DNA of 64,000 nt from Syntrophorhabdaceae bacterium (GTDB lineage: Bacteria > Desulfobacterota > Syntrophorhabdia > Syntrophorhabdales > Syntrophorhabdaceae): the NCBI GenBank assembly GCA_963666485.2, contig CAXXUO010000001.1, positions 896,001 through 960,000 of the forward strand, given 5' to 3'. Below the pieces are notes generated by a model. The model was not told the origin of the DNA and made no database searches. It was given only the letters and a program-made list of their open reading frames with translations. The translations under genes were made by a program, and so were the position numbers. This document shows, piece after piece, positions 36,113-41,162 of this stretch (within the stretch, counting starts at the first letter, position 1; each line of letters opens with the position of its first letter).

Positions 36113-37975
36113 TCACTTTTTGCCCTTCATCCTGCGCACGGCAAGCCCCGGGGTCAGGGCTGTGGCCAGGGACAGGTGCAACCGTTTTTCGCGGTACATG
36201 AGCTTCTCGGCGACAAGCCATTCCAGGATCTCTGCGGCCGGCGGCACCGAAGCCGGGAATCGCTCCGCGATCCGGTCTTGTGTACGTATTTCCATGCAAA
36301 AGAGGTAGACTGCCCGCCACGGTCCCGGCAGCATTATGGTCCGGCACCCGTCGCGCCTGTCGACAATCTCGAGAAAATTCCCGCCATCGTGGTAATACAG
36401 GGGATGCGGCACAGGAAACCGGTCGTCCTTCCTCAACGTCTCGTGGAGCTCCCGCCAGTCGGAACAGGCCTGTTCTACAGGACTCCAATCCACCGGGTTC
36501 GGGGCATCCCAGCTTCTATCCGGCAGAATGAGTTCGTCCGCCGCTTGGGGCGGCAGGCCGCACCGGTAGTCTTCAAGATTACGGACGTTCTTGATCCCGT
36601 ATTTTTCCCGGAAGATGTCCACCGCACATCCGGGGGAAAGTTGAAAGGAAACAGTGCGTGGGGGAGGATAATAGGCACAGGCATAATCGCGAATAGCGGC
36701 TGCCGTTTCTTCCACTTCGTCCGCCGTCGCCCCGGGGAAATTTATGATCAGGTTCGTGTTGTTCCATATACCGAGTTCATGACAGGTCCTTAAGACCTGC
36801 AGGTTGCGTATGACCGTGGTGCCCTTGTTAAGACGCGACAGGTAGCTGTTCGACAAGCCTTCAATGCCGCACTCACACCGCACCATTCCTGCTTCATAGA
36901 GACCCAAAACATCCCGCGCCGTGGTATTGGCCCTCAAGCTTGTAAATATCGAGAATTCGCCGCGGCGCCGTTTCAAGGCCGCCGCCAGTTCCCGGATGCC
37001 CCGGGGCCGAACTGCATTCTCACAAAATACGATGCGGACATTCCGGTAGCGGCGGGCCAGGGCCCCAACCTCGCGGGCGATCCGCGCAGGCGACTTGTCC
37101 CGGTAGGCGCGCCCTCCGAAATTGCAGAAATAGCAGCGGTCAAGGGGGTTGCCCGTCCGCGCTGTCCTATCCCACCAACACCCGCGCGACCCCTCGACCG
37201 GGATGTTCCAGATAATGCTCAGGCTGTCGGCCTTTTTGGCATATTCGTCATAATCGGGGATGGGCAGGGAATCGAGGTCGGGAACCTCCGGGCAGGTAAC
37301 GGCCGGAATGCCCGTGTTCTCCCGGGTCATTATCCCGGGCACTCCCGGATCCGGGTCATGTTCTTCGCTTAAGGCAGTAAGAAGATGTTCGAAGGGGATC
37401 TCTCCTTCGCCCTCGACAATATAATCGACATAATCGAAGTTTTTCAGCACCGCGCGGCCGCGGTCCCCGCTCACCGCAGAGCCGCCGAGCACAATTCGGA
37501 CGCCCGGGGACACCTCCTTTATACGCCGGGCAACGGAGAGACTGGAAAATTCCTGATACAGGCTCGTCGTGAGTCCCACGACACTCTCCCCGGCGAGGGC
37601 CGCGGCCAGCGCATCCCGGTGCTCCACCAGTTCTTCGCGAACCCTGTCAAAGAATTCGTTCCAGGATTGGCCGAACTTCGGCGCGGGCGGCTCTTTGCCT
37701 TCCTCGGCAACGGCCCGCTCAATAAATGCCCGTTTTACCGCTTCACGGTGTTCCGGGAAAAGCGTCGACAGGTATATGCTTTCGCCGAGGACACTGTTGT
37801 TCCGAAAGACCATATAGATGTCGGCACCGACCCGCCTGAATATCTCGAGATGTTCCGAATGACAGGTGAGCTCTATGCGGGGTATCCGGGTGCGGATATA
37901 AGCGGACAGGGCACCGAGCGCGGAAGACGGCATGCCGAAATCGCACCACGGCATCGAAACGAGGGAAACCTTCAT
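36113..37975 (-). CDS. B12-binding radical SAM RiPP-maturation C-methyltransferase (TIGR03975/PoyC-like)
   Basis: N-terminal VSLVSMPW...PSSALGALSA, cobalamin-domain IVLGGS...YIVEGEGE, LPIPDYDEY, EGSRGCWW-X12-CYFC, GIEGLS...NKG and NLIINFPG. Confidence 0.88.
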   Translation of the reverse strand: MKVSLVSMPWCDFGMPSSALGALSAYIRTRIPRIELTCHSEHLEIFRRVGADIYMVFRNNSVLGESIYLSTLFPEHREAVKRAFIERAVAEEGKEPPAPKFGQSWNEFFDRVREELVEHRDALAAALAGESVVGLTTSLYQEFSSLSVARRIKEVSPGVRIVLGGSAVSGDRGRAVLKNFDYVDYIVEGEGEIPFEHLLTALSEEHDPDPGVPGIMTRENTGIPAVTCPEVPDLDSLPIPDYDEYAKKADSLSIIWNIPVEGSRGCWWDRTARTGNPLDRCYFCNFGGRAYRDKSPARIAREVGALARRYRNVRIVFCENAVRPRGIRELAAALKRRRGEFSIFTSLRANTTARDVLGLYEAGMVRCECGIEGLSNSYLSRLNKGTTVIRNLQVLRTCHELGIWNNTNLIINFPGATADEVEETAAAIRDYACAYYPPPRTVSFQLSPGCAVDIFREKYGIKNVRNLEDYRCGLPPQAADELILPDRSWDAPNPVDWSPVEQACSDWRELHETLRKDDRFPVPHPLYYHDGGNFLEIVDRRDGCRTIMLPGPWRAVYLFCMEIRTQDRIAERFPASVPPAAEILEWLVAEKLMYREKRLHLSLATALTPGLAVRRMKGKK

Positions 37976-38021
37976 AGGAATTTATTATTCGAACGCAAAT
38001 GACGCCCTGTGTCTCGGGCCC

Positions 38022-38444
38022 CTAAACGCCCGCGCCCCCCGTTGCCGCCCGCAGCTTAAATTTAGGGTCCAACACTGTTCTCGGTGGAATAACCACAGCA
38101 GCCTCGGTTGCGACACTGGCGCCCGGCGTCGACCCCTGTTTTACCCGGGGAGCGGTCCGGCTGTCGAGAGTCTCCTTTGCCGGCGCGGACGGGGTGGCCC
38201 CTGTCTTGACTTTCACGCCGGATGCCGATGAACCGGAAACAGTCCCTCCCGGTGTGGCGCCTGCCTTAACATTGGCAGCAGCACCTTTCTTCACCGTGGG
38301 CTGCGTTGCCGCGTCCGCGGTCTTCACATTTTTCCCGCCGGCTATCTGGCCTTGCACCCCTTCCACGGGTGCCGCCCCGGCTGAACCGACTGCAAGAACC
38401 GCTCCCGTCACGGCGAGAATGACACCGCTTATTTTTCTGCCCAT
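38022..38444 (-). CDS. Putative repetitive RiPP-like substrate protein A (signal-peptide-like N-terminus, VKxG[AS]TP repeats)
   Basis: RBS CAGGAGGAG; 140 aa; repeats TVKKGAA, NVKAGATP, KVKTGATP, RVKQGSTP; ends 46 bp upstream of the rSAM start. Confidence 0.75.
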   Translation of the reverse strand: MGRKISGVILAVTGAVLAVGSAGAAPVEGVQGQIAGGKNVKTADAATQPTVKKGAAANVKAGATPGGTVSGSSASGVKVKTGATPSAPAKETLDSRTAPRVKQGSTPGASVATEAAVVIPPRTVLDPKFKLRAATGGAGV

Positions 38445-38494
38445 AGCTCCTCCTGCACCGTATCTGAATTAGTCCTGATATTTTATGCAGCCGG

Positions 38495-38926
38495 TTATCG
38501 CTTTATGACTTCCTGCGCCGCGGCGCCACCCGACTCAGCGCCTGATTTTACCTTGGGGTTTGCTCCCTGCGTCGCCTTCCCGGCGAGGGCCGTGCCTGCC
38601 TGGCCGCCCGGCGTTGACCCCTGTTTTACCGAGGGATTGACCTTGCTTCCAAGCTCAGACTTCGTCGGTGTGGACGGGGTGGCGCCTTTCTTTACTTTTA
38701 CGTCGGTTGCCGATGCGGCTCCTCGGGAAGCGTCGTTAATCCTGACGTTGGTCCCGGCAGCGCCCTGTTTCACCTTCGGCTGAGACGTCGCGTCCGCGGT
38801 CATGACGTTCCTGCCGGCCGCTGCCTGCTCAACGCCGGTCTGCGCAGCGGGTACGGCACCGGCTGTGCCGACCGCGAGAACGATACCTGTTACGCCAAGA
38901 ACGACACCCGTTATCTTCTTGCCCAT
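38495..38926 (-). CDS. Putative repetitive RiPP-like substrate protein B, paralog of A
   Basis: RBS CAGGAGGAA; 143 aa from MGKKITGV; repeats KVKQGAA, KVKKGATP, SVKQGSTP, KATQGANP, KVKSGAES. Confidence 0.75.
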   Translation of the reverse strand: MGKKITGVVLGVTGIVLAVGTAGAVPAAQTGVEQAAAGRNVMTADATSQPKVKQGAAGTNVRINDASRGAASATDVKVKKGATPSTPTKSELGSKVNPSVKQGSTPGGQAGTALAGKATQGANPKVKSGAESGGAAAQEVIKR

Positions 38927-38996
38927 AGTTCCTCCTGTGCCTGTTATCGTTGAAAGCATTTTCCAATAATTTCCCGAAACTAGTCAAGGTTAATCA

Positions 38997-39026: not shown

Positions 39027-39080
39027 CGAGCATAAACCTTGAAGATCCTGATACTTAAGAAAATTAAGGGGGATGAGAAG

Positions 39081-41162
39081 ATGCCGGTAGCACGCAAAAG
39101 ATTGTCGGGACCCTGTCTTATTCTTTTCTGCGCGATGGCCTGCATTGCCGGGCCCTTGCTTTGCCCAACCCCCGCAGCTTCCTTACCGCCAGATTACGGC
39201 GAGACGATCTCGGACGCGCGTTCCGCCGCCGAAGAAACGATAGAGAAGACCGGGGCATCGTCGATCTCTCTCGCCCTCATTGAAGACGACAGGCTGGTCT
39301 GGGCCGGGCAATTCGGCCTCGCCGATAAAACGGCCAAGGCCGCACCGACCAAGGAGACGTTGTATGCGATAGGCTCGACCAGCAAAATGATCGCGGCCAT
39401 TGCCGTCATGAAACTCGTCGACCAGGGGAAGGTCCGCCTCGATGAGCCGGTAGTCACATACATCAGATCTTTCCGTATGGTCTCCCCGGAATATAAAAAG
39501 ATCACCGTCAGGATGCTCCTCAACCATTCGTCGGGCTTTCCCGGAACCGACTGGCGCAACGGGTTCACGACATCTCCCCTCAAACATAAGTATTCCTCAC
39601 AGGTGCTGGAAACGCTTGCGTACGAGCGGCTCAAGCACCCGCCCGGCTACCTCAGCGTCTACTGCAATGACGGGTACACGGTCGCTGAGCAGCTCGTCGA
39701 GGCCGTGACCGGCAAAGACTACGCCCGGTTCGTTGAGGACGAGATCCTGGCACCTCTTCAGATGCATAACAGCCGGTATGCGCTCGACCGCGTCCCCGAC
39801 GGCAGCTTCGCCAGGCGTTATGACAAGGACGGCAAGGAACTGCCGTTCCTTTTCATAAATGTGCTTGGCTCCGGGGGGCTCTATTCGACACCCTCCGATA
39901 TGGCGAGACTCGCCGGGATGTTCATCGGGAGAGGAAAGCTCGGCAGCGTGCGGGTCCTCTCGGAAAATTCCGTTGCGAATATGGCGGAAGACCAGACCCT
40001 CAAAAGTTTCAACCCCGTGAAATCCGACATGGTCAGCTACGGGCTTGGCTGGGACACGGTGCACCAGCCGGGGCTTGGCGCGGTGGGCGTCACGGCATGG
40101 CAGAAGGGGGGCGCCATCCCCTATACAAAATCCATACTGACCATCGCGCCCGATGAAAAACTGGCAGTGTTCGTGGTCGGCGCCTCGGGCAATTTCGGCT
40201 CTGATCATGCGGTGGTGCTCGCTGAAAGGGTCATGCTCAACGCGCTCAAGGAAAAGGGAAGGATCGCGTCCCTGCCCGCGAAGCTCAGCGCAAAGGTACT
40301 CCCCGTTAAACCTGTTTCCGTCGTGCAGCTGAAGCATTTCAGCGGTTACTATGCCAATAGCGGGGGATTGATGCGCGTTCGCAGGGGCCCCGGCCACACC
40401 CTGGATGTCTCACAGTACGACGCCGGGACCCGAACATGGAAAACCTGGCAGGCCGGGCTGAGGATGCGTGCGGGAGATCGATTTTCGCGCGCGGAGGAGC
40501 CTTTACGGTCTTTCTCGTTCATCTCCGGCGACGGCCGGCACTATCTCGTGTCCCGGTCCGTTGCGGGATACGGCCATTACCAGGACAACGAGATCATAGC
40601 CCAGAAGGTGTCTGAATCGCGGCCCGTGCCGACCGTATGGAAGGGGCGGCTTGACCGCGAATGGCTCCTCGCGAACGACAATCCCTCATCCGAGGGGTGG
40701 CTCGAACCCTCGACAGGTCTTTTACACATCGCCAATTTGCTTTTGTACGGCGGCGCCCAGGCTGTTGACCCGTTCCTCTCCGGTACGCGCGCCGGGATGA
40801 GGCTCGTCATTCCCCAGATCAAGGGAAGGGATTTGAACGACGTCGTTATCGAGAAACGCGGCGGCCAGGAATGGCTGCGTATCGGCAGCTTTCTTTTCCG
40901 TCCCCGTGACGGGGCAGGTAAACTCAAGGCGGGGAGGAACAGTATCATCGCGGCCCCGGACGGCACCGCAGAATGGCGCTTTGTCGATATGTCCGGCGGC
41001 CCGAAGCTCATCGGCATCAACCCCGATACGCCCGATGGGACTTGGAGGATCTACGACGGCAGCCTGAAACATATAGAAACCGGGAAAGGGAAAAAGGATG
41101 TCACACTTCCCGGCGGGAAATATTACCTCCTTTTCCATCACAATGCACTCGTGACGTACTGA
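39081..41162 (+). CDS. Exported serine hydrolase, beta-lactamase class C / peptidase S12-like, with long C-terminal extension
   Basis: Signal peptide; SxxK (GSTSKM), LLNHSSG, YCN, GGLYST and KGG motifs. Confidence 0.9.
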   Translation: MPVARKRLSGPCLILFCAMACIAGPLLCPTPAASLPPDYGETISDARSAAEETIEKTGASSISLALIEDDRLVWAGQFGLADKTAKAAPTKETLYAIGSTSKMIAAIAVMKLVDQGKVRLDEPVVTYIRSFRMVSPEYKKITVRMLLNHSSGFPGTDWRNGFTTSPLKHKYSSQVLETLAYERLKHPPGYLSVYCNDGYTVAEQLVEAVTGKDYARFVEDEILAPLQMHNSRYALDRVPDGSFARRYDKDGKELPFLFINVLGSGGLYSTPSDMARLAGMFIGRGKLGSVRVLSENSVANMAEDQTLKSFNPVKSDMVSYGLGWDTVHQPGLGAVGVTAWQKGGAIPYTKSILTIAPDEKLAVFVVGASGNFGSDHAVVLAERVMLNALKEKGRIASLPAKLSAKVLPVKPVSVVQLKHFSGYYANSGGLMRVRRGPGHTLDVSQYDAGTRTWKTWQAGLRMRAGDRFSRAEEPLRSFSFISGDGRHYLVSRSVAGYGHYQDNEIIAQKVSESRPVPTVWKGRLDREWLLANDNPSSEGWLEPSTGLLHIANLLLYGGAQAVDPFLSGTRAGMRLVIPQIKGRDLNDVVIEKRGGQEWLRIGSFLFRPRDGAGKLKAGRNSIIAAPDGTAEWRFVDMSGGPKLIGINPDTPDGTWRIYDGSLKHIETGKGKKDVTLPGGKYYLLFHHNALVTY

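What the first reader, a model, noticed from the sequence alone, without database searches (positions are those of the whole stretch)
36113..38926. Candidate new RiPP/protein-modification system: B12-radical SAM methyltransferase with two signal-peptide-bearing multi-repeat substrates
Seen: three tightly spaced co-oriented genes (gaps of 50 and 46 bp). Two are paralogous ~140-aa A/G/V/K/T/P-rich proteins with no Cys, Trp, Tyr or His, each carrying about 4-5 copies of a VKxG[AS]TP-type motif plus weaker variants. The third is a cobalamin-binding radical SAM enzyme. Established: this enzyme family (TIGR03975; PoyB/PoyC and AerC in proteusin pathways) C-methylates unactivated residues of ribosomal peptides, e.g. 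Val to tert-Leu, and its characterised precursors carry nitrile-hydratase-like leaders. Inference: no such leader is visible here. The substrates look Sec-exported with a repeated recognition motif, suggesting iterative methylation (Val, Lys, Thr or Gln in the repeat) of secreted proteins or multi-core precursors. No epimerase, YcaO, lanthionine synthetase or C39 transporter is adjacent, so this would be a minimal and unusual architecture.
Basis: partly seen in the sequence, partly recalled or inferred. Interest (0 to 1): 0.9.

Follow-up and report, generated by a model that had tools for sequence, protein, structure and literature searches.

The report
B12 enzyme with exported repeat protein
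A vitamin-B12-dependent radical enzyme travels between anaerobic bacteria together with a small, lysine-rich repeat protein that carries an export signal and is probably its target, a pairing that recombines known parts in a way I did not find described.

Summary
The enzyme passes the TIGR03975 cut-off, has a Cx14Cx2C cluster motif and a predicted RRE-like C-terminal domain. The two small genes are real (dN/dS 0.17-0.30, AGGAGG sites). Each has a Sec-type N-terminus and four VKxG[AS] repeats; the strict VKxG[AS]TP occurs only 3 and 2 times. A relative of the small gene lies directly upstream of the enzyme in 7 of 7 distinct loci of one enzyme clade (44-100% identity, two phyla, at least four insertion contexts). 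None was found in 118 loci of more distant enzymes or in the 65 of 69 family genomes lacking the close enzyme. So this is a two-gene cassette, with the substrate gene duplicated here. Best reading: cytoplasmic C-methylation of the repeats, probably Val/Ile beta-carbons, then Sec export of a cationic polypeptide. No methylation, export or expression is shown. The nearest outside relatives often lie beside NRPS genes, so the family label alone proves nothing. Signal-peptide repeat substrates are known for MNIO enzymes (oxazolin, bufferin) and non-B12 radical SAM enzymes (HXS). This scan noted similar B12-enzyme/exported-repeat pairs before on other DNA, in different protein families. Verdict: new variant of a known kind.

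The parts
38495..38926 (-). Small gene A1, 143 aa: Sec-type N-terminus, four VKxG[AS] repeats, C-terminal ...EVIKR tail; putative substrate
   Evidence: relatives start MGKK at the same place; AGGAGG before this ATG
38022..38444 (-). Small gene A2, 140 aa: tandem paralog of A1 (52% identity), four VKxG[AS] repeats, diverged C-terminus without the xLIKR tail; putative substrate
36113..37975 (-). B12-binding radical SAM enzyme, 620 aa, TIGR03975 member, Cx14Cx2C subclade
   Evidence: model pLDDT 92 matches OxsB, TokK, TsrM and CysS folds
38855..38926 (-). Predicted signal peptide of A1 (residues 1-24, basic n-region, hydrophobic core, A-G-A|V-P)
   Evidence: judged by features; SignalP was not available
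38373..38444 (-). Predicted signal peptide of A2 (residues 1-24, A-G-A|A-P)
   Evidence: judged by features
38531..38773 (-). Span of the four A1 repeats (Val at residues 52, 78, 100, 126)
38124..38294 (-). Span of the four A2 repeats (Val at residues 51, 59, 79, 101)
37124..37180 (-). Cx14Cx2C iron-sulfur motif (Cys266, Cys281, Cys284)
   Evidence: same spacing in 120 of 120 full motif-bearing sequences (query and listed homologs; one fragment lacked the region); all three Cys invariant in 23 of 23 close homologs
37382..37615 (-). B12-binding Pfam match (residues 121-198)
   Evidence: 31.4 bits, cut-off 32.1
36188..36406 (-). C-terminal three-strand/three-helix domain, RRE-like (residues about 524-596)
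   Evidence: model pLDDT 90.7; best matches TbiB1 Z 7.0 (rmsd 2.6, 72 aligned), lasso B1 Z 6.7 (2.7, 71), TigE Z 6.7 (2.8, 73), tied with other winged-helix domains
38958..38987 (-). Sigma70-like promoter candidate upstream of A1 (weak)
   Evidence: 9 of 12 consensus matches; 3 sites found against 1.3 expected in the region

Best explanation
This is a mobile two-gene protein-modification cassette (substrate gene, then enzyme), with the substrate gene duplicated in this genome. Shown: the genes, their linkage across two phyla, and the enzyme's family and fold. Inferred: (1) the enzyme binds the unexported precursor in the cytoplasm, plausibly through its RRE-like C-terminal domain and the conserved N-terminal segment; (2) a 5'-deoxyadenosyl radical abstracts a hydrogen and methylcobalamin donates a methyl group, once or more per repeat, most likely at the beta-carbon of the Val/Ile in the (V/I)K of each repeat, possibly also at Pro and Thr; (3) Sec exports the product and signal peptidase I removes residues 1-24, leaving a disordered, cationic (net +7 to +11) periplasmic or secreted polypeptide with several methylated repeats that acts in the envelope. 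My odds: substrate relation about 0.7; C-methylation given that, about 0.8; Val/Ile as main site about 0.5; final role open.
For: Linkage: a small-gene relative lies directly upstream and co-oriented in 7 of 7 distinct loci of the clade with upstream DNA (G000, G020, G022, G025, G1139, L088, L091), at enzyme identities from 44% up. Flanking genes differ between G000/G020/G022/L091, G025, G1139 and L088. In 69 family genomes the small protein was found in the same 4 that have the close enzyme and in none of the other 65. No hit in 118 loci of more distant enzymes or in 4 of 4 genomes with distant Cx14 enzymes. Four more small-protein/enzyme record pairs share a longest-contig length (36179, 3885, 3981, 699142). 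Precursor-linked enzymes form one clade (SH-aLRT 99 for the core, 82 with G025). No rival precursor: no NHLP or Nif11 leader in 4 of 4 cassette genomes tested. CobS is present in 4 of 4. The mature regions are rich in Val, Thr and Pro, nearly without aromatics, like MpcB substrates, which are beta-methylated at Pro, Val, Ile and Thr (PMC10849626). The N-terminus is more conserved than the rest (dN/dS lower in 8 of 10 pairs; identity higher in 20 of 21 pairs).
Against: No biochemical, export or expression data. The enzyme is only 28.5% identical to MpcB, and no member of the Cx14 clade is characterised in the papers I saw. The nearest outside relatives (38-44%) have no such small gene; 4 of 8 Myxococcaceae loci lie beside NRPS or AMP-binding genes by Pfam. 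Sister enzymes stand alone among housekeeping genes yet keep the same C-terminal domain, so that domain does not prove peptide binding; its RRE match is tied with ordinary winged helices. MpcB needs a DUF5825 partner, and none was found in this genome. The B12-binding score is just under the Pfam cut-off. The 7 loci are not independent: 4 are close kin at one site. The N-terminal conservation count is partly circular, because P0160-P0166 came from a profile that weights that segment. In bufferins the signal peptide proved dispensable for modification (PMC11626156). The G025 enzyme is frameshifted near residue 100 while its small gene is intact. Upstream DNA of the intermediate branch (P0024, P0026, P0028-P0030) could not be seen.
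Confidence: 0.62

Rival explanations
1. Multi-core precursor: after methylation and export, host proteases cut the chain into short amphipathic cationic peptides, clavusporin-like surfactants or antimicrobials.
For: Repeats alternate Val and Lys and are 20-29 residues apart in most cases. Clavusporin is a cationic, beta-methylated surfactant made by a TIGR03975 enzyme. Many members end in xL(I/T)(K/R)R. An exported serine hydrolase gene lies divergently next door in G000 and L091.
Against: No conserved cleavage motif between repeats is visible. The hydrolase was not found in 4 of 4 other cassette genomes tested. No transporter or protease is conserved beside the cassette. Linker sequences and lengths vary.
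Confidence: 0.18
2. The small protein is the substrate, but the chemistry is not beta-methylation of Val/Ile: for example methylation at a Lys side-chain carbon or at the turn residues, as Mmp10 and QCMT do on Arg and Gln of a protein, or a non-methylating radical reaction.
For: Lys is as constant in the repeat as Val/Ile, and the A(K/T)(P/A)G turn is kept across phyla. The Cx14 loop differs from the Cx7 loop of PoyC and MpcB. B12 radical SAM enzymes also do other chemistry.
Against: The characterised relatives I read about (MpcB, PoyB, PoyC) methylate carbons of mainly beta-branched residues or Pro. The apparent invariance of Lys is built into the search pattern.
Confidence: 0.15
3. The enzyme acts on a small molecule or a housekeeping target, like its NRPS-linked and stand-alone relatives. 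The small exported protein is a co-travelling partner or passenger, not a substrate.
For: NRPS neighbours of the nearest outside relatives. Stand-alone sister enzymes over the TIGR03975 cut-off. One study dropped TIGR03975-rule clusters as likely false positives (10.1101/2022.04.01.486688). Four loci sit among acyl-CoA dehydrogenase and ligase genes.
Against: The small gene is the only neighbour kept in 7 of 7 loci; the acyl-CoA genes are absent from the G025, G1139 and L088 contexts. A cytoplasmic Fe-S enzyme and an exported disordered protein have no obvious link other than modification before export.
Confidence: 0.15
4. The N-terminal segment is a hydrophobic leader or membrane anchor rather than a cleaved Sec signal, so the product stays in the cytoplasm or on the membrane.
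For: The segment is more conserved than the rest, which is unusual for a plain signal peptide (general knowledge). The G025-type proteins have about 15 extra polar residues in front.
Against: All 17 aligned rows have a basic n-region and a hydrophobic 12-mer (mean hydropathy 2.2-2.9); 15 of 17 have A-x-A|x-P right after it. No dedicated leader peptidase is linked.
Confidence: 0.1

Closest known systems
Clavusporin (mpc) system, MpcA/MpcB/MpcC (PMC10849626; parts 1-2 of 6 of the text read)
   Same: TIGR03975 enzyme (MpcB 623.9 bits; 28.5% identical to ours); precursor gene directly upstream; Val/Thr/Pro-rich, cationic target sequence.
   Different: MpcB has Cx7Cx2C and needs DUF5825 MpcC. MpcA is 39 aa with an acidic leader, and the cluster has its own peptidase and MFS transporter. 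Here: Cx14Cx2C, no DUF5825 found, precursors of 95-146 aa with a Sec-type start and repeats.
Proteusins, PoyB/PoyC of polytheonamide (PMC11285071, passages)
   Same: Class B radical SAM C-methyltransferases acting many times on one long precursor.
   Different: NHLP leader, Cx7Cx2C, and epimerase and other enzymes (cluster content recalled). None here. Membership of PoyB, PoyC and AerC in TIGR03975 was not tested; AerC is recalled only.
HXS antiphage system, HxsA-D (PMC13128918; part 1 of 9 and passages read)
   Same: Radical SAM enzymes mature, in the cytoplasm, a signal-peptide-bearing protein with positively charged repeats that then acts in the periplasm.
   Different: Two non-B12 radical SAM enzymes plus HxsD; His-x-Ser repeats, a peptidoglycan-binding domain and a +8 Da change. 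Our proteins have no His in the repeats and no folded domain; no PADLOC match.
Oxazolins/Buf_EGKCG, bufferins and DAG-RiPPs (PMC12452194, PMC11626156, PMC13056109; passages)
   Same: RiPP precursors with Sec or lipoprotein signal peptides; oxazolins carry repeated motifs; no dedicated exporter.
   Different: MNIO enzymes acting mostly on Cys, with DUF2063 partners and metal binding. Our mature regions have no Cys and the enzyme is a B12 radical SAM.
Mmp10 and QCMT/MgmA (PMC8828468, PMC13469106; search listing and abstract start only)
   Same: B12-dependent radical SAM C-methylation of a protein.
   Different: One site in a cytoplasmic enzyme subunit; different families (TIGR04014 only 36.7 bits against a cut-off of 360).

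Membership tests
TIGR03975 RiPP maturation radical SAM C-methyltransferase | HMM score above the curated cut-off | tested here: met
   301.5 against 281.85 bits, full-length; L088 and G1139 enzymes 308.0 and 311.8
Class B (cobalamin-dependent) radical SAM | N-terminal B12-binding domain followed by a radical SAM domain with three cluster Cys | tested here: met
   PF02310 31.4 bits (cut-off 32.1; E 1.9e-7) and PF04055; fold matches OxsB, TokK, TsrM, CysS at E 1e-11 to 1e-15; three Cys invariant
Class B (cobalamin-dependent) radical SAM | Binds cobalamin and transfers methyl groups | not testable with these tools
   needs purified enzyme; hosts encode CobS
PoyC/MpcB type | Cx7Cx2C motif | tested here: not met
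   Cx14Cx2C; Cx7 in MpcB and PoyC
Proteusins | NHLP-leader precursor | tested here: not met
   TIGR03793 not found in 4 of 4 cassette genomes; 3 hits over the cut-off in control G002
Clavusporin (mpc) clusters | DUF5825 partner, S9 peptidase and MFS transporter around the enzyme | tested here: not met
   PF19142 not found in G000 (no control genome passed the cut-off); flanks of G020, G022, G025 and G1139 show no such gene set by ORF listing
HXS system | His-x-Ser repeats, two radical SAM genes and HxsD | tested here: not met
   no His in A1 or A2; one enzyme; no PADLOC or NCBIfam match for the small proteins
Oxazolin/bufferin RiPPs | Cys motifs and an MNIO enzyme | tested here: not met
   no Cys in 17 of 17 mature regions; no MNIO gene seen in the cassette
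Sec/SPase I substrate | Basic n-region, hydrophobic h-region, A-x-A cleavage site | tested here: met
   by features only: 17 of 17 rows for n and h, 15 of 17 for A-x-A|x-P
Sec/SPase I substrate | Actual export and cleavage | not testable with these tools
   no SignalP and no proteomics
RRE-containing RiPP enzyme | Three-strand/three-helix RRE fold | tested here: inconclusive
   topology fits; best match TbiB1 Z 7.0, rmsd 2.6, 72 aligned, tied with unrelated winged helices
RiPP (general) | Gene-encoded precursor modified by the linked enzyme | not testable with these tools
   only genetic linkage shown

The most novel reading that the evidence does not exclude
The cassette is a minimal B12 counterpart of HXS. 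One Cx14Cx2C radical SAM enzyme, whose nearest relatives tailor NRPS products, reads a Sec signal peptide as its leader and places tert-leucine-type methyl groups on every repeat of a cationic disordered protein. The protease-hardened product then acts in the periplasm as a DNA-binding or envelope-sealing effector, for example against phage DNA entry. Its patchy spread (4 of 69 family genomes), varied insertion sites and, in G025, position beside a WYL regulator and DUF2779 fit this but do not show it.
Probability: 0.12. Interest if true: 0.85.

Novelty: new variant of a known kind. Interest (0 to 1): 0.58.

Why it matters
Known B12 radical SAM peptide methylases use dedicated leaders, peptidases and exporters. 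A two-gene unit that C-methylates a Sec substrate would extend this chemistry to ordinary exported proteins. It would raise the question of how an oxygen-sensitive enzyme catches its substrate before Sec does, and it would give the first substrate for the large Cx14Cx2C branch of TIGR03975. It is directly testable with the published E. coli co-expression set-up for such enzymes, and a short portable repeat would be a useful tag for placing unnatural branched residues in proteins. The family is small and rare, which limits its general weight.

Tried and rejected
Complex prediction of the enzyme with A1 residues 1-62 gave no answer (score 0.00, controls not run); it is no evidence either way. 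No RNA holder was listed for the stretch; raw-read run X14 laid 0 reads. The ESM Atlas gave no hit at 0.9 or above for A1 or P0162. No family names the small proteins: 0 NCBIfam matches below E 0.019 for 17 members, and no Pfam match over cut-off for A1, A2, P0162 or P0166. More loci were sought and not found: 0 of 401 genomes in the order of G073, 0 of 281 in the class of G986, only G070 itself among 301 of its class, only G000 and G025 of the close clade among 401 phylum genomes, 0 of 5 handles with P0162, and 0 matches for a motif pattern in viral contigs. The four large searches scored only 3-4 candidates per genome. Plasmids held only Streptomyces Cx7-type matches. Foldseek gave no match at E 0.001 for the C-terminal domain; its comparison with MpcC was weak (probability 13.6%). 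The NHase_alpha search had no ringing control and was replaced by TIGR03793. Rejected: the plus-strand shadow ORFs over the small genes, since the ribosome sites and codon-position pattern favour the minus strand; the upstream ATG at 38959, since relatives start at MGKK; the serine hydrolase as a core part; a foreign-GC island; and identity with ApyD or CysS (77.9 bits against 750; 14% identity). No look-alike note was found in this scan by sequence or place or by a lysine-repeat word search.
Full report
1. Observation. The window holds three minus-strand genes: A1 (38495-38926), A2 (38022-38444) and a 620-aa enzyme (36113-37975), 50 and 46 bp apart. A1 and A2 are 52% identical and lack Cys, Trp, Tyr and His. 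Each has four VKxG[AS] repeats; the strict VKxG[AS]TP occurs 2 times in A1 and 3 times in A2, and 0 of 20,000 shuffles reached these counts. The genes are real: dN/dS is 0.17-0.30 over 10 pairs among 5 homologous genes (dS 0.6-1.3, so approximate), and AGGAGG lies before both starts. A separate metagenome holds all three genes at about 95% identity.

2. Enzyme. It passes the TIGR03975 cut-off (301.5 against 281.85 bits). It has a radical SAM domain and a B12-binding match just under the Pfam cut-off. Its model (pLDDT 92) matches OxsB, TokK, TsrM and CysS. The cluster motif is Cx14Cx2C in 120 of 120 motif-bearing sequences, whereas MpcB and PoyC have Cx7Cx2C. The last 100 residues fold as three strands and three helices. 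The best structural match is the leader-binding RRE TbiB1 (Z 7.0, rmsd 2.6, 72 aligned), with lasso B1 and TigE at Z 6.7, but unrelated winged helices tie with them. The same domain is present in relatives without a precursor.

3. Small-protein family. A profile search of 1.84 billion representatives gave 8 hits, and a second search gave 18; all are 95-146 aa. They share an N-terminus like MRKTxKGIxGxVSGVxLAxGTAxAAP and, by a regular-expression count, one to five copies of a repeat best written (P/V)K(V/I)Kx(G/N/D)(A/S)(T/K)(P/A)G. All 17 rows of alignment A4 have a basic n-region and a hydrophobic core; 15 of 17 have A-x-A|x-P; the mature parts carry a net charge of +7 to +11 and no Cys. This was judged by features, without SignalP. 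The N-terminus is the best-kept part (identity higher in 20 of 21 pairs; dN/dS lower in 8 of 10 pairs). The first count is partly circular, because several members were found by that segment. No curated family names these proteins.

4. Linkage. Among 69 family genomes, 5 have an enzyme match; 4 of them are close (45-100%) and G002 has distant Cx12 copies. The small-protein profile found the same 4 and none of the other 65. The profile contains rows from those 4, so the 65 blanks are the informative part. A close enzyme in 1 of 301 genomes of the class that holds a Thermodesulfovibrionia record has P0162 directly upstream. The window's own phylum holds Desulfobacteraceae and Thermodesulfobacteriaceae, judged from identical segments between named and unnamed loci (L017/L114, L021/L117), so the cassette spans two phyla. 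With metagenome loci L088 and L091 this makes 7 of 7 distinct loci with upstream DNA. L090 was dropped because its contig starts inside the enzyme; L087 and L089 duplicate G020. Across all 140 loci held, the profiles hit 20, all from these 7 sources. Of the other 120, two are clade loci without enough upstream DNA and 118 hold more distant enzymes; some of the 118 have short flanks and many are kin. Four more record pairs share a longest-contig length, which suggests but does not show adjacency. On a 71-row tree the linked enzymes form one clade (SH-aLRT 99 for the core, 82 with G025; quick mode, midpoint root). Only G000 has two small genes.

5. Results against. The Cx14 clade is wider than the cassette. 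Eight of 121 Myxococcaceae genomes have 40-44% relatives without the small gene, and four of the eight lie beside NRPS or AMP-binding genes. A sister clade stands alone among housekeeping genes. Members of both pass the TIGR03975 cut-off, so the label does not imply a peptide substrate. MpcB needs a DUF5825 partner, which was not found here. The G025 enzyme is frameshifted. The context of the branch next to the cassette clade could not be seen. The cassette is rare.

6. Mechanism. Established for class B enzymes: SAM cleavage, hydrogen abstraction, and methyl transfer from methylcobalamin (PMC11285071, passages). Inferred here: the enzyme holds the precursor before export, methylates the repeats, and Sec with signal peptidase I delivers a cationic, disordered chain. 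I favour the beta-carbon of Val/Ile in (V/I)K, because MpcB methylates beta-carbons of Pro, Val, Ile and Thr and Val/Ile fills that position in 63 of 75 pattern-matched repeats (84%; the pattern allows only V, I, T or A there). No NHLP or Nif11 precursor competes in 4 of 4 genomes tested, and CobS is present in 4 of 4. Whether the signal doubles as leader is open: one bufferin paper reports preliminary support (PMC12452194), and another found the signal dispensable (PMC11626156). The role of the product is unknown; an envelope function is my best guess, with short surfactant-like peptides and an HXS-like defence role as alternatives.

7. Comparison. It is a member of TIGR03975. It is not a proteusin, clavusporin, oxazolin or HXS system by their defining features. 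It works like a cross between clavusporin chemistry and the HXS/oxazolin layout (PMC13128918; PMC12452194; PMC13056109). Ten paper searches showed no B12 radical SAM enzyme with a Sec-signal repeat substrate and no Cx14Cx2C cobalamin enzyme of this kind. The library lacks most subscription journals, and I read no supplements; the homolog tables of the clavusporin and MNIO papers could bear on this. What I saw of each paper: PMC10849626, parts 1-2 of 6; PMC13128918, part 1 of 9 and passages; PMC12452194, PMC11626156, PMC13056109, PMC11285071, PMC11002830, PMC12931638, 10.1101/2023.10.30.564719 and 10.1101/2022.04.01.486688, passages; PMC8828468 and PMC13469106, listing and abstract start. Earlier notes of this scan describe B12 enzymes beside or fused to exported repeat proteins of other families. 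I did not test them, apart from reading the DAG-RiPP paper they named, and they are not support.

8. Verdict. This is a real, conserved, undescribed two-gene cassette with a probable enzyme-substrate relation (about 0.6-0.7). Its parts have precedent, the combination was not found in print, and nothing is shown biochemically.

Noticed in passing
window 39039-41162 (+); L091 1-1614: Exported-looking serine hydrolase of the beta-lactamase (PF00144) family, divergent from the cassette in G000 and L091; not found in G020, G022, G025 or G1139.
   Followed up: partly
G002:C37 (L005, L143) and G002:C21 (L007): Two sister enzymes with Cx12Cx2C lie behind radical SAM-SPASM genes; an NHLP-leader gene precedes the C37 pair, and two more lie on C6. 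This looks like a separate proteusin-like locus.
   Followed up: partly
L009, L122, L124, L126, L127: Myxococcaceae Cx14Cx2C enzymes annotated as RiPP methyltransferases sit beside NRPS or AMP-binding genes; they are candidates for NRPS tailoring.
   Followed up: partly
L011-L023, L041, L092-L119: A widespread sister clade (spacing mostly Cx4 or Cx13) passes the TIGR03975 cut-off where tested (2 of 2) but stands among housekeeping genes with no evident precursor; substrate unknown.
   Followed up: no
L003 / L136 (G025): The enzyme is frameshifted near residue 100, and a database protein (P0043) starts at the matching inner Met. The small gene is of a subtype with a YWDWN motif. A WYL regulator and a DUF2779 gene follow.
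   Followed up: partly
L138 (G022): The enzyme is in three pieces, but neighbouring housekeeping genes are broken too, which points to assembly errors.
   Followed up: partly
G000:C1:887758-889593 (-), about 6 kb before the window: A second, distant B12 radical SAM-like ORF (611 aa, 28% over 293 residues), near a Rhs/VgrG-looking ORF pair (label recalled, not tested).
   Followed up: no
L031: Three tandem Cx7Cx2C enzymes in a Veillonellaceae genome.
   Followed up: no
L135 8517-8756 (-): A 79-aa Trp-rich ORF with internal repeats lies directly behind the G1139 enzyme; no Pfam match.
   Followed up: no
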